Below, one piece after another: positions 1 through 11,398 of a stretch of DNA of 64,000 nt (within the stretch, counting starts at the first letter, position 1; each line of letters starts with the position of its first letter). The translations under genes were made by a program, and so were the position numbers. The notes beneath the pieces are model-generated. The model worked only from the letters and a program-made list of their open reading frames with translations. It had not been told where the DNA came from and searched no databases. Origin of the DNA: Verrucomicrobiota bacterium (GTDB lineage Bacteria > Verrucomicrobiota > Verrucomicrobiia > Limisphaerales > JADLHS01). The stretch lies in NCBI GenBank assembly GCA_039806955.1, contig JBDHQI010000009.1, positions 65,517 to 129,516 of the forward strand, given 5' to 3'.

Positions 1-333
1 CAACTCGTCCACGACGGCCACGTCTATGTGCTGGAGACGCCGTTGTTCCGCGTGCGCAACAAGCAGGAAACGATTTATTGTTACAGCGAAGCCGAGCGCG
101 ACAAAGCCGTGACCGAACTCGGTGGCAAGCCTGAGATCACGCGCTTCAAAGGCTTGGGCGAAATCAGCCCGAAAGAATTCGCGCAATTCATCGGCAAGGA
201 GATGCGGTTGAGCAAAGTGGAATATGCCCCGCGCGCCGAGTCCTCGCCGATCTTGACCTTCTACATGGGCAAGAACACGCCAGAGCGCAAGGATTACATC
301 ATGGATAAATTGGTAGTCCCAGTGGAAGAATGA
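1..333 (+). CDS. Type IIA DNA topoisomerase subunit B (ParE/GyrB family), C-terminal ~110 aa; the 5' part lies outside the window
   Basis: Frame 1 is open from base 1 (QLVHDGHVYVLETPLFRV...). RFKGLGEISPKEF matches the conserved KGLGEM box near the C-terminus of GyrB/ParE. Ends ...FYMGKNTPERKDYIMDKLVVPVEE, stop at 331..333. Confidence 0.8.
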   Translation, partial: QLVHDGHVYVLETPLFRVRNKQETIYCYSEAERDKAVTELGGKPEITRFKGLGEISPKEFAQFIGKEMRLSKVEYAPRAESSPILTFYMGKNTPERKDYIMDKLVVPVEE

Positions 334-386
334 ACGTGAATTGAATCACAACGGCCTGTCCACCATAGCTTCAGCGAAGGTGGAAG

Positions 387-434
387 CGCAAAGACTACAT
401 CATGGACAAGCTCGTCGTGCCGGTGGAGGAGTGA
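387..434 (+). pseudogene. Displaced copy B of the topoisomerase-B 3' end (15 codons plus stop), no gene body
   Basis: cgc aaa gac tac atc atg gac aag ctc gtc gtg ccg gtg gag gag tga = RKDYIMDKLVVPVEE*. Protein-identical to 286..333 but different at 11 synonymous positions. In-frame TAG at 366 just upstream. Confidence 0.75.
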
Positions 435-491
435 TGTATCGTCGCCCTTTCCGGGCACCAAAATCTGCGCAGCAATTGGCAAGAACGGGTA

Positions 492-2483
492 TTGTCAAAG
501 TCACGCTGCTTTGGTGAAATGGAGACCGTTCGGGAAGAATTATGTAACCAAACAAACCATCACAGATTTGCGGCTTCGGCTGCTGTTCATACGTTCGGTA
601 TCGAAGGGCTCAAGTTGCGTATCCACTGTCCCGACGTTGTTCTGTCGTGGCCAAGCGTGGAAGACGAAACTTATATGGTTCAATATCGCGAGACCTTGGA
701 CACGAACTCGGTGTGGATTTGGCTGACGAATTCGCTGCCCGCTGAAGTCGGCACAAATCTGACGATATTCATCCACTCCAATCGCGTTGATTGTCCAACC
801 GGTCAAATCTTCGGGATGATGTTCAATGGCGGTGGTGGTGGCGCTGGCGAATCGGAGACTGAAGATGCGCAAGAGAGCGAAAAGCCAACGGTGCCGATGG
901 TGGCATCCAAGGATACATCGCGACCGCCGGTGCCGCTGGGAATCTATCCGCCGGGAATTGATCTCACGGGTTACACCATTATTTGGCCGGACGGCTCGAC
1001 GGATGAGTGGAGCAAAGAACTAGTGGAAAAGTGGCGGGCTAGCCAGCAGGAGGAATCAAACGGGCCGGAACCAGAAGACGCAGGCGGTGGACCGGGGTGC
1101 GGATTCTATCGAGTGGTGCGAACAGGATTGCATCTATTCGGCGTTACCAATGGCACTGTTCTGAGTGGCGAGGTTACTCTTCCCGTCGAAATCGGCTTCG
1201 ATGACGGGATTGAATTCGACGGTTTCTTCGTGATGGTGGGCGACACCAATCAGACCGTCCCGGCCAACGGCCTCGAATTCCAGGAAGTGACGAACGGATT
1301 GCCAAGATTCGTTTTGTGGGACACTCGCCAAGTTACAAATGGGAGTTATCAAGTATTCCTCGGTGCGCAGTGGGGAGAGACTCAAATCTACGAGTCGCCT
1401 CCGGTGACTGTCATTGTCTCAAATGCCATCTGGCTCCCGGATTCGTGGAACGTCGCGGGCTATTACATCAACGTCGAGGCTCAAAGCATATACACGAACG
1501 GAACCTACGATGTGGAGATTTTTGATGACACTGGATTCCAAATCCTTCAGGTGAGCGGCACCAACGACAGTGAAGGTTTTATTACTTATGGAGGAGCCCG
1601 TGGTTTTGGGGTGGAAAACTTCGATCAGAATGGCGAAATCTATCCGAGCGTGTCTTATGCGGTGGTGGTGACTGCGGCTGCTGCTGGTGGCGGTTCATCA
1701 GCCACGACGACGAACATCATCTGGACTGAATTCAAATGGCCGACTCAAGGCGTCGGCTGGACTAAGTTTGCCATCGGCTACCAGCCGATTTTCGGTAATC
1801 CAGCTCTCGGAAGTCCGAATGCGGTCGCGCTTCAGTCGATGATCCAACTGGTTTACGCGTCAGCGCAGGCCCGCCCCGGCTTTCCCGAAGGCCAGCGCGT
1901 CATCCGTGGTCACGATCAAAATCCCAATGAGCTATGGAGCCAGGGCGACTTCACGCAACTCCTCGTCCCGGACTTGAGAGACGACCAGGTCCGCAACCTT
2001 TATTATTTCGGGCATGGCGCAACGAAACATATCGGTGAAAAGGGAGTGCCACGGTTCCTGAGCATTGACGATTTCAACTTTGTACTGCGAAACAACTTCA
2101 AAGACCCGCTCGCAGGGACCAACGCACATCCATTCCGCTTCGTCTGGCTGGACGGATGTTATACGGCGAAAGGAAATCTGTGCAAGGCGTTCGGCATTCC
2201 GAAAGAACAGAATGTTTCCTCGAATCGGTTCGACGCCCGGGGGCTGCGCTACCGGACCTTTATGGGTTGGACTGGGGGACATCTAATTGCAGTTGGCGCT
2301 TTCAACACTTCACACGCCACGTTTGTCGGTGACTTCTGGGACCGCTGGCCAATGAATAACACCAATGGACGACCGAATTCGGTGCGGGAAGCTCACGCTT
2401 ACGCTGGAAGAAACTGGGAGACGTCTGAAAAACTGCGCGTCTATGGTTATGAAGGCCTCAGGTGGCAGGATACGTTGCCGTGA
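492..2483 (+). CDS. Hypothetical multi-domain protein: beta-sandwich (FN3/Ig-like) repeats plus a C-terminal caspase/gingipain-like His..Cys motif (putative cysteine peptidase fold)
   Basis: 663-aa ORF (TTG at 492; first ATG at 519). VVLSWP...GFYRV-type beta-sandwich signature, acidic/Gly linkers. C-terminal NLYYFGHGATKH followed ~45 aa later by HPFRFVWLDGCYTAKG, resembling the HG ... hydrophobic strand-C dyad of clan CD peptidases. No signal peptide seen. Visibly more A/T-rich than neighbouring genes. Confidence 0.6.
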   Translation: MSKSRCFGEMETVREELCNQTNHHRFAASAAVHTFGIEGLKLRIHCPDVVLSWPSVEDETYMVQYRETLDTNSVWIWLTNSLPAEVGTNLTIFIHSNRVDCPTGQIFGMMFNGGGGGAGESETEDAQESEKPTVPMVASKDTSRPPVPLGIYPPGIDLTGYTIIWPDGSTDEWSKELVEKWRASQQEESNGPEPEDAGGGPGCGFYRVVRTGLHLFGVTNGTVLSGEVTLPVEIGFDDGIEFDGFFVMVGDTNQTVPANGLEFQEVTNGLPRFVLWDTRQVTNGSYQVFLGAQWGETQIYESPPVTVIVSNAIWLPDSWNVAGYYINVEAQSIYTNGTYDVEIFDDTGFQILQVSGTNDSEGFITYGGARGFGVENFDQNGEIYPSVSYAVVVTAAAAGGGSSATTTNIIWTEFKWPTQGVGWTKFAIGYQPIFGNPALGSPNAVALQSMIQLVYASAQARPGFPEGQRVIRGHDQNPNELWSQGDFTQLLVPDLRDDQVRNLYYFGHGATKHIGEKGVPRFLSIDDFNFVLRNNFKDPLAGTNAHPFRFVWLDGCYTAKGNLCKAFGIPKEQNVSSNRFDARGLRYRTFMGWTGGHLIAVGAFNTSHATFVGDFWDRWPMNNTNGRPNSVREAHAYAGRNWETSEKLRVYGYEGLRWQDTLP

Positions 2484-2484
2484 T

Positions 2485-4029
2485 ATGAAGCCAGTCCTCT
2501 GCCTAGCCTCGCTCCTGATCACCCAGTCGCTGCCGGCGGACACAAATGCTCCTGTCACGCCGCAGGTTGCTTCAGGCGAGCACCGACAAGCGTTGTTGAG
2601 CTACATTCCCGATGAGCCATTTGCCAGATCACGTTTCGCGGCGCGCCAGGGCTACGTGCCCACCAACACGCTGGCGTTTCGCGAATACGCGTTGGAGTTG
2701 ATGCTGGCCCAAGCAAACAAGCTGAATCATAGCTTTGGACTTGGTCTGCCGACGCCGCTAACGACGGATCATGTGAGCGGGGCGGGTGCCGTGCCGAAGA
2801 TCGGGGGCATCAAAGGCGCCATCACCATCAGCAATCGCTTTAGCCTGAATTTTGAGGATGGAAAATTGGAGGCATTCTGTGACCGCCTCTACTGGTCCGC
2901 AGCGTGGATGCACGATCTGCGCCCACCCGCTATCCCCTCCCTGACCACTAACGGCCAGATGAGGATTCCACTAACGATTGAGGATACGTATAAACGCGCT
3001 TTTGAAGGGCAGGATGCCCGAAACAAAGCGTATCACCAGAAAATGCTACAACTCGCCAAAATGACCAATTTGCTGACCAGAGATGATGCACTGCGTGTCG
3101 CTCAAGAAGCCTTCCACAAGCTGGGCTTTAGCGAAAAGCAGCTGCGGCTGCGCGAGCATCCGGAAGTCAATCAGTTCACATATTCGCCCGAGGGTCAGAA
3201 CATCACCTATCCGCTGCCACTCTATCACGTCGCTTGGCGGCACGCGGAGAGAGACGGCTTTGAGCCCGTTCGGATGGAGGTTTCCGGCATAACCAAAACC
3301 ATTGTGGATTACTTCAATGTGGCGAGCGCTTCGGTTGTGGTCCCAGTGCCGACGAACTATTTTGAAATGCTCGGCGTCCCGCCGGAGCCGCGGCTGTGGG
3401 GCAAACAATATGGGTATGACCCGATCAATACTGAAGCCTTTCAAACGTTCGCACGCGATGTCCTTGTGGAAAAAGCCAACTGGTTGAATGAGACGTGGAA
3501 GCTCGGTATTGCCGGAACAATAACATCAAATCATGTCGAGCGGTTCCAAGCCATCCCGCATACAAATACCTTTCTGGCGTCAGGGCAAATTGCGAGCCGA
3601 TTCCAGTTCCAGGTTGGCGATGGCATGATTCAGATATTCAAGGATGACAAACATGCCTCGGATGCGTTCACGGGCCACAAGGAGAAGATGATGGCGCTGC
3701 TGAAGCAGAAGAACCAATTGACCAAATCTAGTGCTCTCGCTTTGGCTCGTAAGGCTCTGGCTCAAATCGGCCTTGACGAGAAAATGCTCCGCCTGCCGAA
3801 ACCGCAGGTGAGCCAGGTGCGGGAACCGTTTCCCGGTGAGGAAAAACTGCGCGACATCCCATTTTTTTACATTGCATGGAAGTGGACCAACAACGAGGAA
3901 GAGTATCCAATTATGGCGATGGAGCTGTCTGGGATCACCGAGAAGGTGACTTTTTTTGCGAACTCATGCACGAACACTCCGCGGTTCGCGCTGCCGTCGA
4001 ATTATCACGCGATTCTTGGGTTGAAATAG
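2485..4029 (+). CDS. Secreted hypothetical protein with a two-fold internal duplication (each half ends in a PepSY-like helix plus sheet module)
   Basis: ATG at 2485 lies 1 nt after the upstream stop (2481..2483). N-terminus MKPVLCLASLLITQSLPADT looks like a signal peptide. The two halves share NT.AF..A...L..AN.LN, LT(R/K)..AL..A..A....G..EK.LRL, Y/F..(V/I)AW(R/K) and (M/L)E(V/L)SGIT(K/E). Confidence 0.6.
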   Translation: MKPVLCLASLLITQSLPADTNAPVTPQVASGEHRQALLSYIPDEPFARSRFAARQGYVPTNTLAFREYALELMLAQANKLNHSFGLGLPTPLTTDHVSGAGAVPKIGGIKGAITISNRFSLNFEDGKLEAFCDRLYWSAAWMHDLRPPAIPSLTTNGQMRIPLTIEDTYKRAFEGQDARNKAYHQKMLQLAKMTNLLTRDDALRVAQEAFHKLGFSEKQLRLREHPEVNQFTYSPEGQNITYPLPLYHVAWRHAERDGFEPVRMEVSGITKTIVDYFNVASASVVVPVPTNYFEMLGVPPEPRLWGKQYGYDPINTEAFQTFARDVLVEKANWLNETWKLGIAGTITSNHVERFQAIPHTNTFLASGQIASRFQFQVGDGMIQIFKDDKHASDAFTGHKEKMMALLKQKNQLTKSSALALARKALAQIGLDEKMLRLPKPQVSQVREPFPGEEKLRDIPFFYIAWKWTNNEEEYPIMAMELSGITEKVTFFANSCTNTPRFALPSNYHAILGLK

Positions 4030-4092
4030 CTCGGCCCGCACACGTTGTCCGCGTGACGCTCGCCTGCAAGCTGGACTCACGAACCGGTTCTT

Positions 4093-4118
4093 AATCGAAC
4101 GTCGTGGCGCGTTCGATT
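4093..4118 (+). terminator. Possible terminator hairpin downstream of the two-gene module
   Basis: Perfect 9-bp inverted repeat aatcgaacg / cgttcgatt with an 8-nt loop, followed by gggagttttgcc (weak T tract). Confidence 0.3.
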
Positions 4119-4160
4119 GGGAGTTTTGCCAGAGCGGAAATCGTTTTCCCAAAAGCATGA

Positions 4161-4573
4161 GCAGTTTTCGCCGAGACCATTGTTGCGAAGGTGAAGGACA
4201 CGCAGGAGTTGCGAAAGGAATTGCAGAACGTGAAGAAGCTCGCGCGCGAACGCGCCAAGGCGATCACGTTGCGCATCCCGCAGTTGAAGGACTGCAAGAA
4301 TCATTTCGACAAGAAGAAGGAAAAGGGCAAGGGCACGATGGTCTTCATCTGCGAAGGCCAATCCGCCGCCGGTTCGATCACGAGTTGCCGCGACGTGAAC
4401 AATCAGGCCGTGTTCGTGCTCAAGGGCAAGCCGCTCAACGTCTGGGACCTCATCCGTCTTGATTAACACGACATCGAGGAATCACAAGCATTACCATGGG
4501 AAACACCATGGGCAAGAAAACGCCTGAACGAAAAGAATACATCATGGACAAGCTCGTCTCGCCGTTGGAGTGA
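4161..4573 (+). pseudogene. Topoisomerase-B pseudogene: an internal (linker plus TOPRIM) fragment fused out of frame to tail copy C
   Basis: 4161..4466 translates to ...KELQNVKKLARERAKAITLRIPQLKDCKNH...MVFICEGQSAAGSITSCRDVNNQAVFVLKGKPLNVWDL*, the ...L.DC...EG(D)SA(G)GS...GK.LNV TOPRIM block of GyrB/ParE. The roughly 200 aa expected after it are missing. 4496..4573, in another frame, reads MGNTMGKKTPERKEYIMDKLVSPLE*. Confidence 0.7.
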
Positions 4574-4592
4574 GCGAGAGCAAACAAACCTT

Positions 4593-4620
4593 TTGCGCCG
4601 TCAACCGGACAGGCTAGAAT
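4593..4620 (+). promoter_or_regulatory. Possible sigma-70-type promoter for hicBA
   Basis: TTGCGC (4593..4598), 16-nt spacer, TAGAAT (4615..4620), then GAGG just before the ATG at 4627. Confidence 0.35.
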
Positions 4621-4626
4621 GAGGCC

Positions 4627-4845
4627 ATGAAGAAGCTGACAGCCATCTTGCATCGCGGCGAACCGAGTGAAGGCGGGTTTTGGGCGACCTGCTTGGAAGT
4701 GCCCGGCGCAAATGGTCAAGGCGAGACCAAGGAAGAATGTCTGGCCGACCTCAAAAACGCTGTTCAACTCCTGCTTGAAACCGAGCGCGAAGAGGTATTT
4801 CGTCTCGATCCCAGCGCGGAAACGGCCGAGTTGGAAGTGGCATGA
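4627..4845 (+). CDS. hicB: HicB-family antitoxin (short form, UPF0150/RNase H-like fold only)
   Basis: 72 aa. ...GGFWATCLEVPGANGQGETKEECLADLKNAVQLLLE is typical of the HicB N-domain. Overlaps hicA by 4 nt (ATGA). Confidence 0.75.
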   Translation: MKKLTAILHRGEPSEGGFWATCLEVPGANGQGETKEECLADLKNAVQLLLETEREEVFRLDPSAETAELEVA

Positions 4846-5036
4846 AACGCCGGGCATTGCTCGGCCACCTGCAGGAATACGGTTGTGTGCCGCACCGCGA
4901 AGGCGGCAGTCATTCGATCTGGATCAATCCTCAGACCGGACGTAAAGAAGCCATCCCCCGCCACAGCGAAATCAAGAGGTTTCTGGCCCGCTCCATCTGC
5001 CGGAATCTTTCTGTACCTATTCCTCCGGGCAATTGA
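4842..5036 (+). CDS. hicA: HicA-family mRNA interferase toxin
   Basis: 64 aa. KRRALLGHLQEYGCVPHREGGSHSIWINPQTGRKEAIPRHSEI matches the HicA pattern (GGSH, P.H.EI). Confidence 0.8.
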   Translation: MKRRALLGHLQEYGCVPHREGGSHSIWINPQTGRKEAIPRHSEIKRFLARSICRNLSVPIPPGN

Positions 5037-5046
5037 TCCTCAAACA

Positions 5047-5112
5047 GGCAAGCAGACGCCGGAGCGCAGGGGCTACATTATAGACCAGCTCGTTGTGGCG
5101 GTGGAGGAGTAA
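5047..5112 (+). pseudogene. Displaced copy D of the topoisomerase-B 3' end
   Basis: ggc aag cag acg ccg gag cgc agg ggc tac att ata gac cag ctc gtt gtg gcg gtg gag gag taa = GKQTPERRGYIIDQLVVAVEE*. It has no topoisomerase-B gene body in front and begins 10 nt after the hicA stop. Confidence 0.7.
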
Positions 5113-5198: not shown

Positions 5199-5439
5199 TC
5201 AAAGCTCCCGTTCTGCTTTGCGGTTTTTCATCATCGCCTTCAACACGCCCTTGCCCTTGAGCGAGCCGCGCAACCGACGAATGAATTTGGTGGTGACGGG
5301 TTTGAGGAGGATACCTTCCGGCGTGGCTTCCACGTAGGCGCGCGTGCCCTCCTCAATCTCAAATTCCTTTCGCAATCGCCGGGGAATGACCGCCTGTGGC
5401 CTTGGATCGAGAAGTAAACCGATTCCGTTTTGTTGCCAT
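5199..5439 (-). pseudogene. AbrB/MazE/SpoVT-family antitoxin-like gene, apparently frameshifted near its 5' end
   Basis: The reverse strand reads ...LLLDPRPQAVIPRRLRKEFEIEEGTRAYVEATPEGILLKPVTTKFIRRLRGSLKGKGVLKAMMKNRKAEREL* (looped-hinge-helix pattern). The only upstream ATG (5439) is in a different frame (MATKRNRFT...). The span is 241 nt, not a multiple of 3. No partner toxin gene. Confidence 0.45.
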
Positions 5440-5599: not shown

Positions 5600-6517
5600 A
5601 TGAAGATTCGTCGGATATTGCGCTGGTTCTTTTTGACGCTGCTTGGCCTAGTCGGGTTGCTCGGCGTGATCGTGGGTTCCGTTTGGTGGTATTTCCATCC
5701 ATCTGTCGAACGCACGGATGGAATCGTGTATGGCTGGCGCGGAAAACGGGAGCTGGCGTTAGACGTCATCAAACCGCACCGGGCGAATGGCCTCGGCGTC
5801 TTGGTGATGGTCAGCGGTGGTTGGAAATCAAAGGCCCCCGGCGAACTCAGCACCTGGATGGCGGCGGCCCTGTTGCGTCGGGGTTACACGGTGATTCCGG
5901 TCTATCATGTTTCACAACCCGAGGCGAGCATCATGGAGATTATCACGGATGTGAACCGCGCCGTGCGCTTCGTCCGTTATCACGCTCGTGAATACGGCAT
6001 CGAACCGCAACGACTCGGCATCACGGGCGGCAGCGCCGGAGGTCACCTGAGTTTGATGCTGGCAACGCGGGGCGGGCCGGGGCCAACAGATGCGAGTGAT
6101 CCAGTGGATCGCGAAAGCAGCGCGGTGCAATCAGTGGCGATCTTTTTTCCCGTGACGGATTTGTTGAACCTCGGCAAGTCCACGGAAAACCTGGGCGACG
6201 GCGGTCCTCCCAAAAGCTTCCGGCGCGCGTTTGGTCCGGAGGGAACAAACCTGCCAGTCTGGCAGGTGATTGGCCGCGATTGCTCGCCGATTTATCACGT
6301 GACAACGAATCTGCCGCCCATCCTCATCTATCATGGCGATGCCGATACGCTGACACCGCTCGAACAATCCGAATGGTTTATCGCGAAAACAGAGGCAGTT
6401 GGTCATCCCGCCAAACTGGTCGTGCATCACGGTGGCCGTCATGGTTGGCCCAGCATGATTTTTGATCTTCGCCGTTTCGCCGATTGGTTTGATCAAACGC
6501 TGCGGAACCCAAAGTGA
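5600..6517 (+). CDS. Alpha/beta hydrolase (esterase/lipase-like)
   Basis: 305 aa with an N-terminal TM/signal segment. GITGGSAGGHL nucleophile elbow (GxSxG). A late HGDADTLTP and H..GRHGW are consistent with an Asp/His triad. Confidence 0.7.
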   Translation: MKIRRILRWFFLTLLGLVGLLGVIVGSVWWYFHPSVERTDGIVYGWRGKRELALDVIKPHRANGLGVLVMVSGGWKSKAPGELSTWMAAALLRRGYTVIPVYHVSQPEASIMEIITDVNRAVRFVRYHAREYGIEPQRLGITGGSAGGHLSLMLATRGGPGPTDASDPVDRESSAVQSVAIFFPVTDLLNLGKSTENLGDGGPPKSFRRAFGPEGTNLPVWQVIGRDCSPIYHVTTNLPPILIYHGDADTLTPLEQSEWFIAKTEAVGHPAKLVVHHGGRHGWPSMIFDLRRFADWFDQTLRNPK

Positions 6518-6542
6518 AGTAGCCGGGCGACAGTGTGACCCG

Positions 6543-6932
6543 TCATTGGCCGCGCTTGAGCAGGGCGATCACCGCCGCATGGGTGAGAATCACATCCGGG
6601 TCACGCTGCAACGCGTCGTAGTAGTGTCCGGAAAATCCGTGACCGGCTTCCGAGGCGACGAGCAATTGCTCGGCCTGCTGGCAAAGCGCAGCGGCTTGCG
6701 ATTCATTGAGCGGATGCCGCTGCGTATCGAGCGCCTGATCCATGCTGACGATCAGACGCGAGAGCGGGTGCAACCAGGCGAACCACGGGTCGGTGGTCAG
6801 CAGATGGAGGAAACGGTTGGGCGTGGGGATTTTACCCATGGTCCGCTCATAACTGACGCGTTCGGATTCCACCAGGGTCTTGTGCAAACGCAGGAGCGCC
6901 TCACGCAGTTTCGTCAGTTGCGCGGCGGTCAT
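6543..6932 (-). CDS. Hypothetical protein
   Basis: ATG at 6932 (MTAAQLTKLREALLRLHKTL...). Non-repetitive helical-looking sequence. The longer ORF in the track would overlap the upstream gene. Confidence 0.5.
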   Translation of the reverse strand: MTAAQLTKLREALLRLHKTLVESERVSYERTMGKIPTPNRFLHLLTTDPWFAWLHPLSRLIVSMDQALDTQRHPLNESQAAALCQQAEQLLVASEAGHGFSGHYYDALQRDPDVILTHAAVIALLKRGQ

Positions 6933-6976
6933 TTCGCTTTTGAAAACGGATTGGGGTGAAACGGATCTCGGCGTGG

Positions 6977-7984
6977 TTACAAACTGTTCAACACGTCCAC
7001 CATCTGGCGCAGGCGACCATAATCGCGACGGTTGAAACCGAACGCAATGCGCTGCTGCTCGAGGCAATCCTGGTCTTCGCGTTCCTCGGGCGTGGGTTCA
7101 ATGCGCTTGATGGGCGCGCCCGAAATGAGGTCGGCAAAATCCTCATTCATCGCTTCCAACGCGGTGTCGGTCGGTGCGTGACGCAGCCGGATCACCAGCA
7201 GGTCTTTGACGAAACGAGTTGAATGGAAATTGCGATAAAACCGGGAGACAATTTTCACCGCTTCATCGGCGTTATCGGTGATGCGGTAAAGGTGCAGATC
7301 GTCGGGCGAAATCAGTCCGTCGCGCAGCAAGTGTTCGCGGATGTTCTTATCCCACGTTTTCCAATACGTGCCACCGGGTTTATCCACCAACACCAACGGC
7401 ATGAGCTGGCTCTTACCGGTTTGCATGAGGGTGATCGCTTCGTAACCCTCATCCATGGTGCCGAAACCGCCGGGGAAAAGAACGATGGCGTCCGAGTGGC
7501 GGATAAACGTGAGCTTGCGCGTGAAGAAGTATTTGAAGGTGACCAATTTTTTGTCCTGGGCGATGACGGGATTGGCGTTTTGTTCCCACGGCAACCGGAT
7601 GTTCGCGCCGAAGCTGTTCTCCGAACCGGCGCCTTCATGTCCGGCCTGCATGATGCCTGAACCCGCACCGGTGATGACCATGAACCCGGCCTGGACAATC
7701 TTGTGACCGAACTCCACGGCTGTTTGATATTCCAATTTGTTTGCCGCAGTGCGGGCCGAGCCGAAGATGGTTACTTTACGGCGTTGGGCGTAGGGCGCGA
7801 ACAGGCGGTAAGCGTAACGCAACTCACGCACGGCGGTTTGAATGACCCGCACGTCGCCGGTGTCCTTCACATCCTGCAGCAATTTCAGCGCGTTTTCGAT
7901 GATGTCCGCCACGGCTTCTTCGTTATAGCCGCCACCTTTGAATTTGATGAGATCCAGGACCCGCCGATGTAATTCCGGATCCAT
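6977..7984 (-). CDS. LOG/TIGR00730-family Rossmann-fold nucleotide phosphoribohydrolase (long form)
   Basis: KVTIFGSARTA...VITGAGSGIMQAGHEGA...PGGFGTMDE motifs. Start taken at MDPELHRRV (7984). Confidence 0.75.
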   Translation of the reverse strand: MDPELHRRVLDLIKFKGGGYNEEAVADIIENALKLLQDVKDTGDVRVIQTAVRELRYAYRLFAPYAQRRKVTIFGSARTAANKLEYQTAVEFGHKIVQAGFMVITGAGSGIMQAGHEGAGSENSFGANIRLPWEQNANPVIAQDKKLVTFKYFFTRKLTFIRHSDAIVLFPGGFGTMDEGYEAITLMQTGKSQLMPLVLVDKPGGTYWKTWDKNIREHLLRDGLISPDDLHLYRITDNADEAVKIVSRFYRNFHSTRFVKDLLVIRLRHAPTDTALEAMNEDFADLISGAPIKRIEPTPEEREDQDCLEQQRIAFGFNRRDYGRLRQMVDVLNSL

Positions 7985-8071
7985 CGAAGTTTTTTCAGAT
8001 TTCACACTCACAAGACAAATAATGATAATTAACTGGTTGGCAATTTGACCACTGAACCCGGCGCGCAATCT

Positions 8072-10030
8072 CTAGGGCGTCGAACGGGTATCGGCCGGGG
8101 TCTGGGATTGATCCGCTTCTCCGGGCGGCTCTTTGGGTTCCAATTGCGGCGGAACGGCGACGGGCGTCGCGTTATCCGACCACCGCTTGTAATCCCAAAG
8201 AATTAATTGCTCCGGGAAATAACCCGGTTGGGCGAAACGCAGCGGAAACTTTTCCGGCGCACGATTGCGGAGCAGCGATTCAAGAATGAACGTGGGCCAA
8301 CTGCGATCGCCCGCCCGCACCCAATCGGTCAGGATGCGGCTATCCGTCGTCTCTGGCGTCAGATAAAGGCAGCGGATGGGTTTGATGTAATCATGCACCT
8401 GATAAAACTGCTCCTCAGAATTGCGCGTCAGCCACAAGCACTGACGCTTACCGTACCAGGCCACGGCCCACGGAATATCGCTGATCATCATTTCATCGGG
8501 TCGCAGGTACTGTGCGATGTCTTGAATCGCCGGCGGATAATAAGGCGGATAATGAACCGGACGCACCTTGGGCGAGATCAGGGTAAATGCCAGCGGCAGA
8601 TTGACGAGGACGGCAAACAAGCCGATCACAATGTAACGCAGCTCGCGAATCTTGAGGTTCATTTGATCCAGCAGTTGGAAAAACAAACCCGCGCCGTAAA
8701 TGAAAATTAGCGGCACCAACAGAATGAGCAGATTTTCCGAGTTGAACCCGGGACTTTCCACCGACAACTGGGTTTTACCCATCGCCTGTACCAGAAACAA
8801 AGTGAACAAAGCTGCGAGAACAAAATAGCGCAACCGCCGGATCGCGAGGCTGCGATACGAGAGCAACAGCCCGGTCAGAAACATCGCGCTGACCCAGGTG
8901 CCGCCCAGCCGCGGCAGTGCGTCCGTGATGAGATCGCGGGCGTTGTACAAAAATTTGTAGAAGAAGATGGGCAGCGCGATGCTGCGGAAGTCCGGGTTGA
9001 GCGAGCGTTGCAGGCGAAACTCCGGCAACGCGAAAGTTCCCTCCAGCAGCGCATAACCCGCCGTCCCAAAGGGTGTGCCGCTAACGTGGAAGTTCCGCCA
9101 AATCCAGGGCGCGATGACAATTAAAAACGTCGCGCTGATCAGCAGGAGAACGCGCCAACGCCGCAACGCGCAAATAATGCCGACGTAAACCAGCACGGGG
9201 ACCACCAGCCAGCCGAAGGAGTAAGTCGTCAACATGCCCAACCCGAGCAGCAGGCCGATCAGCAGCGCGAGCCAGATCTGGGCGCGTGGACTCCAGATCG
9301 GATCGCGTTCTTCCCGTTCGATCCAAACCAAGCCCCAGATCAGTCCCTGAAAAATCAGCATCAACAGCAGCGTGGGCAAGCCAGTCACGCTGAAATGCCA
9401 GAGCACTTCACAGCAAATCATCAGGGCGAACGACAGCCACGCCACCGAACGATCAAAGAGTTTTCGCGCCAGAAAGAATACGACGACGGCGTTGAGGATC
9501 AGCAGGCTTTGATTCAACAGCGCGAGCAGGAAATCCGGCTCGTAACGCCAGAACTGGCGGGCAGAAGTCTGCCGCAACTGCTCAGACGTCAGCGAAGCCA
9601 GCCTTGGATTCGGGATGCTCCAGAACGGGTTGACGACATTGATCGGATAACGAAACGGCAGCACTTTCATCGCCCCCGCTAGGAAGAGCGGATAAACCGG
9701 CGGGTTGGCCAGATCCGGGTGCATGACCTCCTTCACTTCGGCCAGATCGGGGCGCTCATCCGACGCCGGATCTGTCGCACGATTTTGATTGTGCTTCCGA
9801 ACGAGATGCAGACTGAACGGCCGGATCAAATGCGTGGTGAAGCCATTCCCCTCGGCGATATTGCGCGCGACCTGGGCGGCATCCATGGCTTCCTGGTTGC
9901 TCAGGTTACGGAAATCGCGCCAGTTATAGACGACCAGCAGAATGCCCACCAGCAGCCCCACGAATATGATCCGGAACCCACTACCGCCGCGTTCTTCAAA
10001 CTTGTGAATCCAATCCTGAATTAACGGCAT
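8072..10030 (-). CDS. Polytopic membrane protein, GT-C-fold glycosyltransferase-like (ArnT/PMT, GT39-like)
   Basis: 652 aa with many predicted TM helices. NQEAMDAAQVARNIAEGNGF-type first loop, C-terminal soluble domain. Starts 3 nt after the response-regulator stop. Confidence 0.45.
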   Translation of the reverse strand: MPLIQDWIHKFEERGGSGFRIIFVGLLVGILLVVYNWRDFRNLSNQEAMDAAQVARNIAEGNGFTTHLIRPFSLHLVRKHNQNRATDPASDERPDLAEVKEVMHPDLANPPVYPLFLAGAMKVLPFRYPINVVNPFWSIPNPRLASLTSEQLRQTSARQFWRYEPDFLLALLNQSLLILNAVVVFFLARKLFDRSVAWLSFALMICCEVLWHFSVTGLPTLLLMLIFQGLIWGLVWIEREERDPIWSPRAQIWLALLIGLLLGLGMLTTYSFGWLVVPVLVYVGIICALRRWRVLLLISATFLIVIAPWIWRNFHVSGTPFGTAGYALLEGTFALPEFRLQRSLNPDFRSIALPIFFYKFLYNARDLITDALPRLGGTWVSAMFLTGLLLSYRSLAIRRLRYFVLAALFTLFLVQAMGKTQLSVESPGFNSENLLILLVPLIFIYGAGLFFQLLDQMNLKIRELRYIVIGLFAVLVNLPLAFTLISPKVRPVHYPPYYPPAIQDIAQYLRPDEMMISDIPWAVAWYGKRQCLWLTRNSEEQFYQVHDYIKPIRCLYLTPETTDSRILTDWVRAGDRSWPTFILESLLRNRAPEKFPLRFAQPGYFPEQLILWDYKRWSDNATPVAVPPQLEPKEPPGEADQSQTPADTRSTP

Positions 10031-10033
10031 AAA

Positions 10034-11398
10034 TCAAAATCCTTCCAGATGGTAGGTATGCAATTTCCGGTGGAACGTCCGGCGCGGCATCCCGATCTTC
10101 TGGGCCGCCAGTGTCCGGTTTCCGCCGGTTTCTTTCAAGGCACGGATGATTAATTGTTTCTCGGCTTCTTTCACGGTCAAGTTGTTCTTTACCAGCAACC
10201 GGGCGGGATCACTCGTGGGTGCGGTTTCCGAACGCACCGTACGCGGCAAGTCGCGTGCCGAAATCCGCTCCCCGCGACACATTACCACCGCGCTTTCAAT
10301 CGTCGCCCGCAACTCGCGCACGTTACCTGGCCAGCGATGATTCAAAAGCATCCCCATCGCGTCGGTGGTGAAGTCGGCGATGGTCTTGTCGTTTTCTTTG
10401 GCGTATTCGCGCAAAAAATTCGTGGCCAGCAAGGGAACGTCCTCCATGCGCTCGCGCAACGGCGGCAGATATAACTCCACAATTTTCAAGCGGAAATACA
10501 AATCTTCGCGGAACGTGCCCGCCTTGACCATCGCCTCCAAATCCTTGTTGGTGGCCGCCATCAATCGCACATCCGCCGTCTGGGTTTTGTTTGAACCGAC
10601 CCGCTCGAACGTGCGTTCGCCCAGAAAGCGCAGCAGTTTGATTTGCAGCGTGGGATCAATTTCGCCGATCTCATCGAGAAACAGCGTGCCGCCCTGGGCT
10701 TGCTCAAAGCGGCCGATGCGCCGCTCGTGCGCCCCGGTGAACGCGCCGCGTTCGTGACCGAACAGTTCGCTCTCGAGCAGCGAAGGCGAGAGCGCCGCGC
10801 AATGCACCGAGACCAGCGGTTGTTTGGCGCGCGGACTGAGCTGATGAATGGCCTTGGCGATCATCTCCTTGCCGGTGCCGCTTTCGCCGAGAATCAACAC
10901 CGTGGCGCGCGTGGGGGCCACCTGCTTGACCGTTTCAAACACCTCCAACATTGCGGCGGATTTGCCGATGATGTTTTCCAGTCCGAACTTGTCATCTAAT
11001 TGCTGCCGCAGCGTGACGTTTTCCGATTCAAGTTTTTGCGTGCGCACCGCACGGGCAATGCGCATTTCCAATTCGTCAATCTGCATCCGCCCCTTGGCGA
11101 TATAATCGTCCGCGCCGCGCTTCATCGCTTCCACCGCCAGCTCCTCCGAGCCATAGGCGGTCATTAAAATGCAGACCGGCGGTTTGGCCAGAGACTTGGC
11201 CCGCGCAATCAGTTTCATGCCGTCTTCATTCGGCATTTTGAAGTCGGTCAACAGCACCTCGAAGTTTTCCGTCTCGAGCAGGTCGAACGCACTCTTGGCG
11301 TCCTCCGCCAGATAAACATCAAAGCGTTCTTCCAACGCGGCGCGCAAGCCTTCGCGCGTCGGCTTTTCGTCATCCACAATCAACAGGGTCGGTTTCAT
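10034..11398 (-). CDS. Sigma-54-dependent response regulator (NtrC/AtoC family)
   Basis: REC domain (LIVDDE...D), AAA+ GESGTGKE, GAFTGA sigma-54 contact motif, C-terminal Fis-type HTH. Confidence 0.9.
   Translation of the reverse strand: MKPTLLIVDDEKPTREGLRAALEERFDVYLAEDAKSAFDLLETENFEVLLTDFKMPNEDGMKLIARAKSLAKPPVCILMTAYGSEELAVEAMKRGADDYIAKGRMQIDELEMRIARAVRTQKLESENVTLRQQLDDKFGLENIIGKSAAMLEVFETVKQVAPTRATVLILGESGTGKEMIAKAIHQLSPRAKQPLVSVHCAALSPSLLESELFGHERGAFTGAHERRIGRFEQAQGGTLFLDEIGEIDPTLQIKLLRFLGERTFERVGSNKTQTADVRLMAATNKDLEAMVKAGTFREDLYFRLKIVELYLPPLRERMEDVPLLATNFLREYAKENDKTIADFTTDAMGMLLNHRWPGNVRELRATIESAVVMCRGERISARDLPRTVRSETAPTSDPARLLVKNNLTVKEAEKQLIIRALKETGGNRTLAAQKIGMPRRTFHRKLHTYHLEGF

What the first reader, a model, noticed from the sequence alone, without database searches (positions are those of the whole stretch)
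265..5112. Four diverged direct copies of the topoisomerase-B C-terminal tail stacked behind the live gene, delimiting cargo cassettes
Four copies are present. Copy A (265..333) is the end of the live gene: MGKNTPERKDYIMDKLVVPVEE*. Copy B (387..434) reads RKDYIMDKLVVPVEE*. Copy C (4496..4573) reads MGNTMGKKTPERKEYIMDKLVSPLE*. Copy D (5047..5112) reads GKQTPERRGYIIDQLVVAVEE*. All are in direct orientation and each keeps its own stop codon. B and D have no gene body in front of them. Between B and C sit a two-gene orphan module and an internal topoisomerase-B fragment. Between C and D sits a hicBA pair. After D comes an abrB-like remnant. This is the footprint expected when elements carrying a surrogate 3' end integrate repeatedly into the 3' end of an essential gene; the established precedents are phage 21/e14 in E. 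coli icd and islands in tRNA/tmRNA genes. Two things are unusual here: a type IIA topoisomerase gene as the reiterated target, and no recombinase anywhere in the 5 kb.
Basis: partly seen in the sequence, partly recalled or inferred. Interest (0 to 1): 0.75.

Follow-up and report, generated by a model that had tools for sequence, protein, structure and literature searches.

The report
Stacked relic ends of topoisomerase gene
Behind an essential topoisomerase gene of a soil or freshwater Verrucomicrobium lie three leftover copies of the gene's own last codons, each marking a past insertion of foreign genes that brought a replacement gene end; no recombinase gene is linked to any of these insertions, here or in related species.

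Summary
Four direct copies of the topoisomerase-B C-terminal tail sit at the stated coordinates, and nothing else in the 64 kb resembles them. The organism is a subdivision-3 Verrucomicrobium (Pedosphaerales/Limisphaerales).

- **Recurrence:** 13 of 80 related species carry extra tails behind this gene. All are downstream and in direct orientation, and most keep their own stop codon. Cargo differs every time.
- **Empty sites:** many relatives have none. In 34 of 80 the A-subunit gene follows directly.
- **Origin of the tails:** A and B differ by 11 substitutions, all silent, so they diverged as working gene ends. This is not a decayed local duplication.
- **Displaced ends:** in two occupied/empty species pairs the relic is followed by the native downstream genes.
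- **TOPRIM fragment:** by inference from assembly-graph breaks, it is an exact 268-nt repeat of the live gene.
- **No recombinase:** about 50 cargo and flank ORFs in 14 arrays have none. The one nearby integrase belongs to a tRNA-Cys island family.
- **Boundaries:** relic left ends are scattered from 15 to about 270 codons before the stop.
- **Second gene:** the A-subunit gene shows the same scars.

Best reading: homology-anchored, recombinase-free displacement of the 3' end, as known for Rhs and T6SS effector genes, here at an essential gene. A trans-acting site-specific system is not excluded.

The parts
1..333 (+). Last 110 codons of the live type IIA topoisomerase B-subunit gene (ParE/GyrB-like, about 635 aa in relatives). 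Tail A is 265-333 and has unusually A/T-rich third codon positions.
   Evidence: PF00986 E 3e-8. 89% identical to the full-length gene of L005. Tail HMM score 111. The Logan contig L003 extends it 203 nt upstream. The closest DNA relative of tail A is a relic tail in L014 (86%).
334..386 (.). 53-nt spacer between tails A and B, part of a conserved A-spacer-B unit.
   Evidence: 92-94% identical to two places in L014 (3188-3291 and 10260-10361), each again lying between a tail and a 15-codon tail. No Rfam match.
387..434 (+). Tail B: a relic of the last 15 codons plus stop, with the codon usage typical of live genes.
   Evidence: Tail HMM score 33, profile positions 31-45, own stop. 11 silent and 0 non-silent differences from A; 0 of 200,000 random sets of 11 substitutions were all silent. 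96-98% identical to live tails of L007 and L013 and to an L014 relic.
519..2483 (+). Cargo gene g1 (654 aa): beta-sandwich domains followed by a probable gingipain/PorU-like cysteine peptidase domain.
   Evidence: No Pfam, NCBIfam or PADLOC hit. 130 homologues, apparently all from Verrucomicrobia where named. Invariant His499 and Cys547. AF2 pLDDT 82. Top PDB fold hit is PorU 6za2. Homologues in L168-L170 are not next to a topoisomerase tail.
2485..4029 (+). Cargo gene g2 (514 aa): signal peptide, two internal repeats, function unknown. It travels with g1.
   Evidence: No family hit. The g1-g2 pair is conserved in L169 and L170, with 76% DNA identity to L169 over window 585-4030.
4026..4166 (.). 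'P arm': a conserved non-coding block directly upstream of the TOPRIM relic.
   Evidence: 89-91% identical to L004 1345-1507 and 77% to L021 4209-4335, in both cases directly upstream of a topoisomerase-B relic although the cargo upstream differs. No homology to the live gene by nhmmer. No Rfam match. Absent from the viral and metagenome collections searched.
4167..4452 (+). Relic of the gene's TOPRIM region, starting about 261 codons before the stop. Bases 4185-4452 are inferred to be an exact repeat of the live gene.
   Evidence: PF01751. Aligned to live genes. The first 30 nt of Logan contig L003 equal window 4423-4452, L003 ends at 4214, and L001 starts at 4423. This is the pattern of a two-in, two-out repeat node in a k=31 graph. 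L021 shows the same end point after GGGAYCTCA.
4453..4495 (.). Filler at an internal deletion junction. About 145 codons of the relic are missing between the TOPRIM block and tail C.
   Evidence: tblastn maps residues 3-77 and then 222-242 of the 243-aa C-terminal reference. See also the alignment.
4496..4573 (+). Tail C: the end of the same internally deleted relic copy. It has its own stop and has lost one codon.
   Evidence: Tail HMM score 40, window 4508-4570. 11 silent and 6 non-silent differences from A.
4627..4845 (+). Cargo: hicB-like antitoxin gene (72 aa).
   Evidence: Weak matches to TTHA1756 and HicB chains (E 0.02-0.6). Overlaps hicA by 4 nt. No Pfam hit.
4842..5036 (+). Cargo: hicA toxin gene (64 aa).
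   Evidence: PF07927 E 5e-10. An identical protein is found on 4 Logan contigs.
5047..5112 (+). Tail D: the outermost and most decayed relic (21 codons plus TAA).
   Evidence: Tail HMM score 30. 10 silent and 10 non-silent differences from A. Homology to the live gene starts 22 codons before the stop.
5199..5420 (-). Frameshifted remnant of a MazE/AbrB-type antitoxin gene, just beyond the array.
   Evidence: PF04014 E 1.7e-4, below threshold, profile positions 9-45 of 48. Translation. A 63%-identical copy lies in L025.

Best explanation
The locus is a stack of scars from repeated, recombinase-free displacement of the 3' end of an essential type IIA topoisomerase B-subunit gene.

Each event brought in DNA that began inside the gene's very conserved 3' part. 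Host homologous recombination crossed over there, so the gene kept its own 5' part and acquired the incoming 3' end. The far side of the incoming DNA joined in one of two ways:
- illegitimately, inside or just behind the old 3' end (homology-facilitated illegitimate recombination); or
- by homology to an existing relic, either as a double crossover or as Campbell-type insertion of a circle carrying 'tail plus cargo'.

The old end, now without promoter or gene body, was pushed downstream together with everything behind it.

Repetition gives the order: gene, newest cargo, newer relic, older cargo, older relic. Relics then decay by substitutions, internal deletion and MITE insertion. Where they are still similar enough, gene conversion against the live gene refreshes them.

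In the window the order is:
- live end A with its spacer
- relic B
- g1-g2
- P arm, TOPRIM relic and tail C
- hicBA
- relic D.

Shown here: the tails are former working gene ends; the process recurs across species with different cargo; empty sites exist; relics keep the native downstream flank; and no recombinase is linked.

Inferred: the recombination pathway itself (RecA-type anchoring plus illegitimate joining or circular intermediates), and gene conversion as the cause of the exact 268-nt repeat.
For: 1. The tails were functional ends. A and B differ at 11 of 48 bases, all silent (P < 5e-6 by simulation). All four keep a stop at the homologous codon.
2. Age gradient. Non-silent differences from A are 0 for B, 6 for C and 10 for D. 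Outer relics are also the most decayed in L006, L049 and L067.
3. Recurrence. 13 of 80 species-level genomes carry 20 extra tails. All are downstream, all on the gene's strand, and all within 7.1 kb. Further arrays were found in L006 and L004.
4. Empty sites. L005 has none. The A-subunit gene lies directly after the gene in 34 of 80 loci.
5. Occupied/empty pairs. The L038 relic is followed by the genes that directly follow the live gene in L025, and the same holds for L040 against L037. In L040 the last ~300 nt of the live gene are foreign (74-84% against 93-96% upstream), the relic is closer to L037 (87%), and a mosaic tract shows recombination between the copies.
6. No recombinase. None was found in about 50 ORFs within and beside 14 arrays. 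The L004 integrase is of a tRNA-Cys island family. No tail is present in viral contigs.
7. Relic left boundaries are scattered: 15, 20, 22, 23, 26, 27, 37, 45, 50, 52, 59, 60, 70-72, 79, 89, about 261 and about 270 codons before the stop. Their upstream flanks are unrelated.
8. Cargo is ordinary and heterogeneous, not an element backbone. It includes two-component system, rubrerythrin, esterase, beta-lactamase-fold, ECF sigma/kinase, R-M, Fic and HicAB genes.
9. The neighbouring, equally conserved A-subunit gene has relic tails of its own in L038 and L028. This argues for a general homology-driven process.
10. The TOPRIM block is 90-97% identical in DNA between species, so it is a good anchor.
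11. The same mechanism has been proposed for Rhs tips and T6SS effector-immunity arrays (PMC2935791; PMC5361080).
Against: - Three junction types are shared between species: the P arm plus the 261-codon boundary in the window, L004, L021 and partly L006; the identical end of the TOPRIM block in the window and L021; and the A-spacer-B unit in the window and twice in L014. A site-specific system would also leave such fixed junctions. I explain them by descent or horizontal spread of old relic modules, but this is not shown.
- No relic 5' 'heads' were seen upstream of the gene in 80 loci. A purely homology-driven process might be expected to leave some. Selection against expressed truncated N-terminal fragments could explain the asymmetry, but that is untested.
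- No donor was found in which g1-g2 lies next to a topoisomerase gene.
- Homology-facilitated illegitimate recombination is rare in experiments (as discussed in PMC5361080).
- Neither competence nor any other DNA uptake route is known for these uncultured bacteria.
- The exact 268-nt repeat is inferred from contig breaks. It was not read in the live gene, whose 5' part lies outside the window.
Confidence: 0.55

Rival explanations
1. The cassettes are, or were, site-specific integrative elements that use the 3' part of the topoisomerase gene as attB and carry a surrogate end, as in phage 21/e14 in icd. Their recombinase was either lost each time or acts in trans from elsewhere in the genome, as with integron cassettes or cis-mobilisable elements.
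For: - Fixed, conserved junction modules are shared between species with different cargo: the P arm plus TOPRIM relic, and the A-spacer-B unit.
- In L040 the foreign part of the live gene starts close to the relic's left boundary.
- Cargo is tightly trimmed to gene ends, with 10-140 nt between the cargo stop and the next relic.
- All relics include the last 15 codons, so a core located there would fit every copy.
Against: - No recombinase was found in about 50 ORFs of 14 arrays, nor upstream of the gene in the nearest relative L017.
- The only integrase nearby is a tRNA-Cys island integrase.
- No phage or viral contig carries a tail or a 3' fragment.
- Left boundaries are scattered and have no common flanking motif.
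- Cargo shows no element backbone such as excisionase, replication or transfer genes.
- The A-subunit gene shows the same scars, which would require a second targeting system.
Confidence: 0.27
2. A local tandem duplication of the gene or its 3' end, followed by decay and by insertion of genes between the copies.
For: The 268-nt TOPRIM block is inferred to be identical to the live gene, which looks like a recent local copy.
Against: - A and B differ only silently at 23% of positions, which neutral decay cannot produce.
- Tails are closest to tails of other species, not to each other.
- Cargo differs in every species, and empty sites are the majority.
- Relics carry the native downstream flank.
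- The identical block is bounded on the left by diverged relic sequence and on the right by a deletion junction. This fits gene conversion better than a fresh duplication.
Confidence: 0.03
3. Assembly artefact: a metagenomic mis-join of strains at the repeated TOPRIM block creates the apparent stack.
For: Short-read assemblies break at both ends of the 268-nt block. Many database proteins of this gene are truncated.
Against: - The graph has two entries and two exits at the repeat, and only the window's path keeps the essential gene intact.
- Contigs identical to both sides occur in several sequencing runs.
- Tails A-B and C-D each lie on a single contig, independent of the repeat.
- The same architecture occurs in 14 other assemblies, including long-read ones (L067).
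Confidence: 0.02
4. The repeated tails are kept because the last ~50 nt of the gene carry a functional signal, for example an RNA element or terminator, that cassettes need or capture.
For: Most relics keep the last 15 codons and the stop. The spacer after tail A is conserved.
Against: - Divergence between tails follows the codon pattern (silent sites), not an RNA-structure pattern.
- Outer tails decay.
- No Rfam match and no terminator-like site at the tails.
- Many relics extend far upstream of the last 15 codons.
Confidence: 0.05

Closest known systems
C-terminal displacement in rhs loci (Jackson et al. 2009, PMC2935791) and orphan cdiA-CT/cdiI arrays
   Same: - A conserved 5' gene body stays in place.
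- A laterally acquired 3' end replaces the old one, which is pushed downstream.
- Arrays of dissociated 3' 'tips' build up in direct orientation, each with a piece of core homology at its 5' side.
- No dedicated recombinase is involved; homologous recombination, possibly with circular intermediates, is proposed.
   Different: - The gene here is an essential housekeeping enzyme, not a polymorphic toxin.
- The new end encodes the same peptide as the old one, so the end itself brings no new function.
- What varies is unrelated cargo behind the gene, not a toxin tip with its immunity gene.
Sequential displacement of T6SS effector-immunity modules in Vibrio cholerae by homology-facilitated illegitimate recombination (Kirchberger et al. 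2017, PMC5361080)
   Same: - A one-sided homologous anchor in a conserved upstream region, with a non-homologous far end.
- Successive insertions shift older genes and effector 3' remnants downstream.
- No integrase was found.
- Complex arrays can later move between strains by ordinary homologous recombination.
   Different: - The retained orphans there (immunity genes) are under selection. Here the relic tails appear to be neutral scars.
- The anchor here is an essential gene.
- The clade is different.
Integrative elements carrying a surrogate 3' end for a protein-coding attB: phage 21 and e14 in E. coli icd; also tRNA/tmRNA islands
   Same: The target gene stays intact because incoming DNA supplies a new 3' end. 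The old end remains as a direct repeat at the far side. Tandem accretion is possible.
   Different: - Those elements encode their own integrase next to the att site and recombine at one fixed core.
- Here no recombinase is linked, boundaries are scattered, and the cargo is not an element backbone.
Integron cassette arrays (my own knowledge; the parallel is also drawn in PMC5361080)
   Same: Recombinase-free cassettes are inserted at one end of an array, next to a fixed landmark, so that older cassettes move outward. The cassettes are tightly trimmed.
   Different: There is no intI gene next to the array and no attC-type structured sites. The only sequence shared between cassettes is the coding sequence of the adjacent gene's end.

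Membership tests
Integrase-mediated integrative element with surrogate 3' end (phage 21/e14-icd type, tRNA-island type) | The element encodes a tyrosine or serine recombinase, usually next to one att site. | tested here: not met
   No recombinase domain in the window's 5 kb, nor in about 50 ORFs of 14 related arrays and their flanks. The L004 integrase belongs to a tRNA-Cys island family.
Integrase-mediated integrative element with surrogate 3' end (phage 21/e14-icd type, tRNA-island type) | attL and attR share one fixed core, so displaced copies start at the same position of the target gene. | tested here: not met
   Relic left boundaries range from 15 to about 270 codons before the stop, with unrelated flanks. 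A subset (window, L004, L021, L006) does share one boundary.
Integrase-mediated integrative element with surrogate 3' end (phage 21/e14-icd type, tRNA-island type) | The target gene's reading frame is completed by incoming sequence, and the old end is left as a direct repeat distal to the insert. | tested here: met
   Silent-only A/B divergence. The L040 live end is foreign while its relic resembles L037, and relics are followed by native downstream genes.
C-terminal displacement arrays (Rhs / CDI / T6SS effector type) | The conserved gene body is retained, and displaced 3' ends accumulate downstream in direct orientation, each with partial core homology at its 5' side. | tested here: met
   Window tails B, C (with the TOPRIM piece) and D. 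20 extra tails in 13 of 80 species, all downstream and on the same strand.
C-terminal displacement arrays (Rhs / CDI / T6SS effector type) | No dedicated recombinase; homologous recombination acts on the repeats. | tested here: inconclusive
   Absence of a recombinase is shown. A mosaic tract between the L040 relic and its live gene, and the inferred exact 268-nt repeat in the window, indicate recombination between copies. The pathway of the insertions themselves is not shown.
C-terminal displacement arrays (Rhs / CDI / T6SS effector type) | Displaced tips are polymorphic toxin domains paired with cognate immunity genes. | tested here: not met
   All tails encode the same conserved topoisomerase C-terminus. 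Cargo is unrelated to the gene.
Integron | An intI integrase with attI at the head of the array, and attC sites bounding each cassette. | tested here: not met
   No integrase upstream in the nearest relative L017 or in the arrays. Cassette junctions share no motif apart from the tail itself. The region upstream of window base 1 could not be read.
Homology-facilitated illegitimate recombination product | One junction lies in a homologous anchor, and the other is an illegitimate join at microhomology with the donor end. | not testable with these tools
   No donor sequence is known for any cassette, so microhomology at the far junction cannot be scored. In L040 the drop in identity begins roughly 50-100 nt upstream of the relic boundary, as expected for an anchor, but this is within noise.
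HicAB type II toxin-antitoxin pair (cargo between C and D) | A HicA toxin domain next to a HicB antitoxin. | tested here: inconclusive
   HicA matches PF07927 at E 5e-10. The partner has no Pfam, NCBIfam or PADLOC hit and only weak PDB matches to HicB-like chains. The genes overlap by 4 nt.

The most novel reading that the evidence does not exclude
The tail of the topoisomerase B-subunit gene, and that of the A-subunit gene, is the attachment site of an undescribed cassette-capture system in subdivision-3 Verrucomicrobia. A recombinase encoded elsewhere in the genome would insert and excise recombinase-free cassettes at the end of an essential gene. The conserved P arm and A-spacer-B units would be its recognition arms. 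This would be a functional analogue of an integron, built on a housekeeping gene.
Probability: 0.12. Interest if true: 0.85.

Novelty: new variant of a known kind. Interest (0 to 1): 0.55.

Why it matters
- **Wider reach of a known mechanism.** If the reading is right, 3'-end displacement is not confined to polymorphic toxin genes. The most conserved essential genes of a clade can serve as landing pads through which unrelated genes enter genomes across species boundaries without any mobile-element machinery. The cargo seen here includes restriction-modification systems, toxin-antitoxin pairs and surface proteases.
- **A readable history.** The relic tails give an ordered, datable record of successive acquisitions at one locus, newest next to the gene.
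- **An annotation problem.** Public protein sets of this clade hold hundreds of truncated 'toprim domain' proteins. Assemblies often break inside this gene because of relic repeats, which matters for a gene commonly used as a phylogenetic marker.
- **A testable question.** It asks how often homology-anchored illegitimate recombination, rather than site-specific recombination, builds genomic islets in uncultured bacteria.

Tried and rejected
- **L004 integrase as the mobilising enzyme.** The integrase lies 1 kb from a relic in L004. Eighty metagenome loci of its family showed 0 topoisomerase tails and 12 tRNA-Cys genes on the integrase strand, and a tRNA-Cys lies beside it in L004 itself. No direct repeat of the tRNA end was found to delimit that island.
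- **P arm as decayed topoisomerase sequence.** nhmmer with a profile of 77 live genes extends homology only to window 4167, not into 4026-4166. Rejected.
- **P arm or spacer as a known RNA.** No Rfam match. No terminator-like or promoter-like site at the junctions.
- **P arm elsewhere.** 0 matches in viral contigs. 0 matches in the metagenome collection, which evidently lacks even the L004 contig, so that result says little.
- **Phage-borne surrogate ends.** Neither a protein-based nor a pattern-based scan of viral contigs found any.
- **Pfam scan of 81 flank ORFs through an alignment.** The output lists only the top 25 of 107 families, so it could not prove absence of recombinases. It was replaced by direct scans.
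- **HMM of the single integrase family against all loci and the window.** Nothing found, but sensitivity is low.
- **Reading the gene upstream of window base 1.** The window's own 140-kb contig is not retrievable, and the Logan contigs stop 203 nt upstream at the repeat.
- **A donor with g1-g2 next to a topoisomerase gene.** Three homologous loci have other neighbours.
- **Identity profile of the window's live 3' part against relatives.** Uninformative, because the gene's 3' end is generally less conserved.
- **Clustering of relic boundaries** (for example 70-72 codons before the stop in four species). Judged to be probably a detection effect, since a variable linker lies just upstream.

Full report
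**Observation**

The repeat finder places them in its top direct-repeat family. I built a profile HMM from 81 tails of this gene in related loci (nearly all of them live gene ends). In the whole 64-kb window, on both strands, it finds exactly four hits, all on the + strand: 196-330 (score 111), 387-431 (33), 4508-4570 (40) and 5047-5109 (30).

Copy A ends a gene whose last 110 codons match DNA_gyraseB_C. The stretch 4191-4466 is a Toprim fragment. HicA is confirmed by Pfam. HicB is supported only weakly. The minus-strand remnant after D is a frameshifted MazE/AbrB-type antitoxin, matching below the Pfam threshold. No recombinase domain is present in the 5 kb.

**Organism and gene**

Homologues of the gene's C-terminal part come from Verrucomicrobia subdivision 3: Pedosphaera, Limisphaerales and 'Verrucomicrobiia' MAGs. 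Sources call it topoisomerase IV or gyrase subunit B. The full gene is about 635 aa (L005).

In 34 of 80 related species the A-subunit gene (PF00521) follows it directly. An operon of the two subunit genes is therefore the commonest arrangement and perhaps the original one.

**The TOPRIM fragment is a repeat of the live gene**

Logan contigs of the same organism break in a telling way. L003 holds 203 nt upstream of the window plus window 1-4214, and its first 30 nt are identical to window 4423-4452. L001 starts at 4423. In a k=31 graph this is the signature of an exact repeat, window 4185-4452, with two entries and two exits. One copy lies in the live gene just upstream of the window. The other lies between g2 and tail C.

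This is an inference from contig ends. The live copy itself was not read. Only the window's path through the graph leaves the essential gene intact.

Homology of the fragment to live genes starts at about 4167, 261 codons before the stop. It ends at 4452, after which about 145 codons are missing before tail C. So C and the fragment are one internally deleted relic copy.

**The pattern recurs across species**

A scan of one genome per species returned 80 loci. In 13 of them the tail HMM finds 20 further tails. All are downstream of the live gene, all on its strand, and all lie 57-7124 nt from the stop. Most keep their own stop codon. Two more arrays came from metagenome contigs (L004, L006).

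Cargo between tails differs every time: Type ISP and XhoI restriction-modification, Fic, subtilase, a giant RCC1/Ig protein, carboxylesterase, a two-component system with rubrerythrin, a beta-lactamase-fold protein, FG-GAP proteins with a kinase and an ECF sigma factor, and orphans.

Most species have an empty site.

**The tails are former working gene ends**

A and B differ at 11 of 48 positions, all silent. None of 200,000 random sets of 11 substitutions was all silent. B has the codon usage of live genes and is 96-98% identical to live tails of other species. A has unusual A/T-rich third positions, and its nearest relative is a relic in L014.

Non-silent differences from A rise with distance from the gene: B 0, C 6, D 10. 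This fits the newest relic lying next to the gene.

In two pairs of species, the relic in the occupied genome is followed by the genes that directly follow the live gene in the empty one: L038 against L025, and L040 against L037. In L040 the last ~300 nt of the live gene are foreign relative to L037 (74-84% against 93-96% further upstream), while the relic is closer to L037 (87%). A 90-nt tract in which the relic and the live gene of L040 agree against L037 shows recombination between the copies. In L038 the relation is the other way round: the live end looks orthologous (94%) and the relic is diverged (72%). So the partition between old and new sequence varies from event to event. A local tandem duplication followed by decay is therefore rejected.

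**No recombinase**

Pfam scans covered about 50 ORFs inside and just beyond 14 arrays, plus the region upstream of the gene in the nearest relative. They found no integrase, resolvase or transposase.

The single integrase near a relic (L004 3332-4393) was followed up. A tRNA-Cys gene lies beside it. In 80 metagenome loci of its family there is no topoisomerase tail in 409 kb, while 12 loci have tRNA-Cys on the integrase strand. It belongs to a tRNA-Cys island. Viral contigs hold neither a 3' fragment of this gene nor a tail.

**Boundaries**

The left ends of the relics are scattered between 15 and about 270 codons before the stop, and their upstream flanks are unrelated. Some cluster (70-72, 26-27 and 22-23 codons). 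Each cluster coincides with the start of a conserved motif after a variable linker, so the clustering may be a detection effect.

**Shared junction modules remain unexplained**

- Window 4026-4166 (the 'P arm') has no homology to the gene. Yet it is conserved next to the 261-codon relic in L004 (89-91%) and L021 (77%), where the cargo upstream is different. L006 shares the boundary.
- The TOPRIM block ends at the same base in the window and in L021.
- The 53-nt spacer between A and B, together with both tails, recurs twice in L014, where the two copies flank 7 kb of cargo.

A site-specific system would leave such junctions. They also follow if old relic modules are inherited or spread horizontally, with cargo swapped by recombination in the flanking homology.

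**A control, and a second gene**

For 766 long ORFs in the window and the related loci, I searched the 9 kb downstream for copies of the last 45 residues. The B-subunit gene gave hits in 13 loci.

The A-subunit gene gave relic tails of 15-17 codons, each with its own stop: L038 19614-19661 and 20668-20712, and L028 13544-13594. About a dozen other genes gave hits. Most were full-length matches typical of tandem paralogues or low-complexity sequence, and I did not examine them one by one.

Scars at both topoisomerase genes favour a general process that depends on sequence conservation over a dedicated targeting enzyme. The TOPRIM block is 90-97% identical in DNA between species.

**Mechanism proposed**

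Incoming DNA that starts within the conserved 3' part of the gene recombines there by host homologous recombination. Its far end joins in one of two ways:
- illegitimately, in or just behind the old end (homology-facilitated illegitimate recombination); or
- by homology with an existing relic, as a double crossover or as Campbell insertion of a circle formed by recombination between tails.

The gene stays intact with a new end, and the old end moves outward. Relics then decay, suffer deletions and MITE insertions, and are partly homogenised by gene conversion. Gene conversion would explain an exact 268-nt block bounded on the left by diverged relic sequence and on the right by a deletion junction.

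Shown: the origin of the tails, recurrence, empty sites, the native flank behind relics, and the absence of a recombinase. Inferred: the recombination pathway. I put this explanation at 0.55, and site-specific recombination with a lost or trans-acting enzyme at 0.27.

**Comparison with what is known**

The closest precedents are C-terminal displacement of rhs genes, with arrays of dissociated tips and proposed homologous recombination with circular intermediates (PMC2935791), and sequential displacement of T6SS effector-immunity modules by homology-facilitated illegitimate recombination (PMC5361080).

The locus works like these but is not a member. The gene is an essential enzyme, the replaced end encodes the same peptide, and the variable part is unrelated cargo.

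It shares with phage 21/e14-icd only the outcome: an intact gene plus a displaced end. It fails the defining tests of an element-encoded recombinase and a fixed core. It is not an integron.

I rate it a new variant of a known kind.

**Cargo of the window**

- g1 (519-2483) belongs to a family whose named members are all from Verrucomicrobia. It has invariant His499 and Cys547. The AlphaFold model is confident (pLDDT 82), and its best PDB fold match is PorU, a gingipain-type cysteine peptidase, alongside many Ig/FN3 matches.
- g2 (2485-4029) has a signal peptide and two internal repeats but no family.
- The g1-g2 pair occurs in other genomes away from any topoisomerase tail.

**Limits**

- The 5' part of the live gene was not read.
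- The related loci are MAGs.
- No same-species pair with and without a cassette was available.
- No donor is known for any cassette.

Noticed in passing
L038 19614-19661 and 20668-20712; L028 13544-13594: The topoisomerase A-subunit gene follows the B-subunit gene directly in 34 of 80 species. It has relic tails of its own, of 15-17 codons each with its own stop and in direct orientation.
   Followed up: partly
window 519-2483: Cargo gene g1 has an invariant His499/Cys547 pair. Its confident AlphaFold model best matches PorU, a gingipain-type cysteine peptidase, preceded by Ig/FN3-like domains. It is a probable surface or secreted peptidase of a family whose named members are all from Verrucomicrobia.
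   Followed up: partly
L004 about 1560-1600; L006 inside 10001-10879; L021 about 4630-4720: Short palindromic MITE-like repeats have inserted into relic gene fragments. One is in frame and reads LTPSLSPSDGERVAKPGEG. A similar insert occurs in some database proteins.
   Followed up: no
window 5600-10030 versus L017 2-3182: The esterase, LOG-family and membrane-protein genes that follow the array in the window lie upstream of the topoisomerase gene, inverted, in the nearest relative L017. An inversion breakpoint therefore coincides with the outer end of the array.
   Followed up: no
proteins P0001-P0120: The 120 best-scoring database proteins for this gene's C-terminal part are all truncated (158-310 aa). 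Some have frameshifted N-termini. They are relic fragments, frameshifted genes and contig-end pieces, so this marker gene is poorly assembled and annotated in the clade.
   Followed up: partly
L004 3332-6027: A tyrosine integrase with DUF6573 and small genes lies next to tRNA-Cys. Its family is widespread in soil and freshwater metagenomes, and 12 of 80 loci show the tRNA-Cys. No repeat of the tRNA end was found to mark the other border in L004.
   Followed up: partly
L025 10615-12428; L038 11918-13767: A HipA-like kinase gene and a partner gene sit between the two topoisomerase subunit genes. In L025 no relic tail accompanies them, so insertions at this site do not always leave a scar.
   Followed up: no
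window 2485-4029: g2 consists of two diverged internal repeats, seen as DNA repeat D10 (3035-3060 and 3776-3801) and in the translation. It starts with a signal peptide and has no family match.
   Followed up: no
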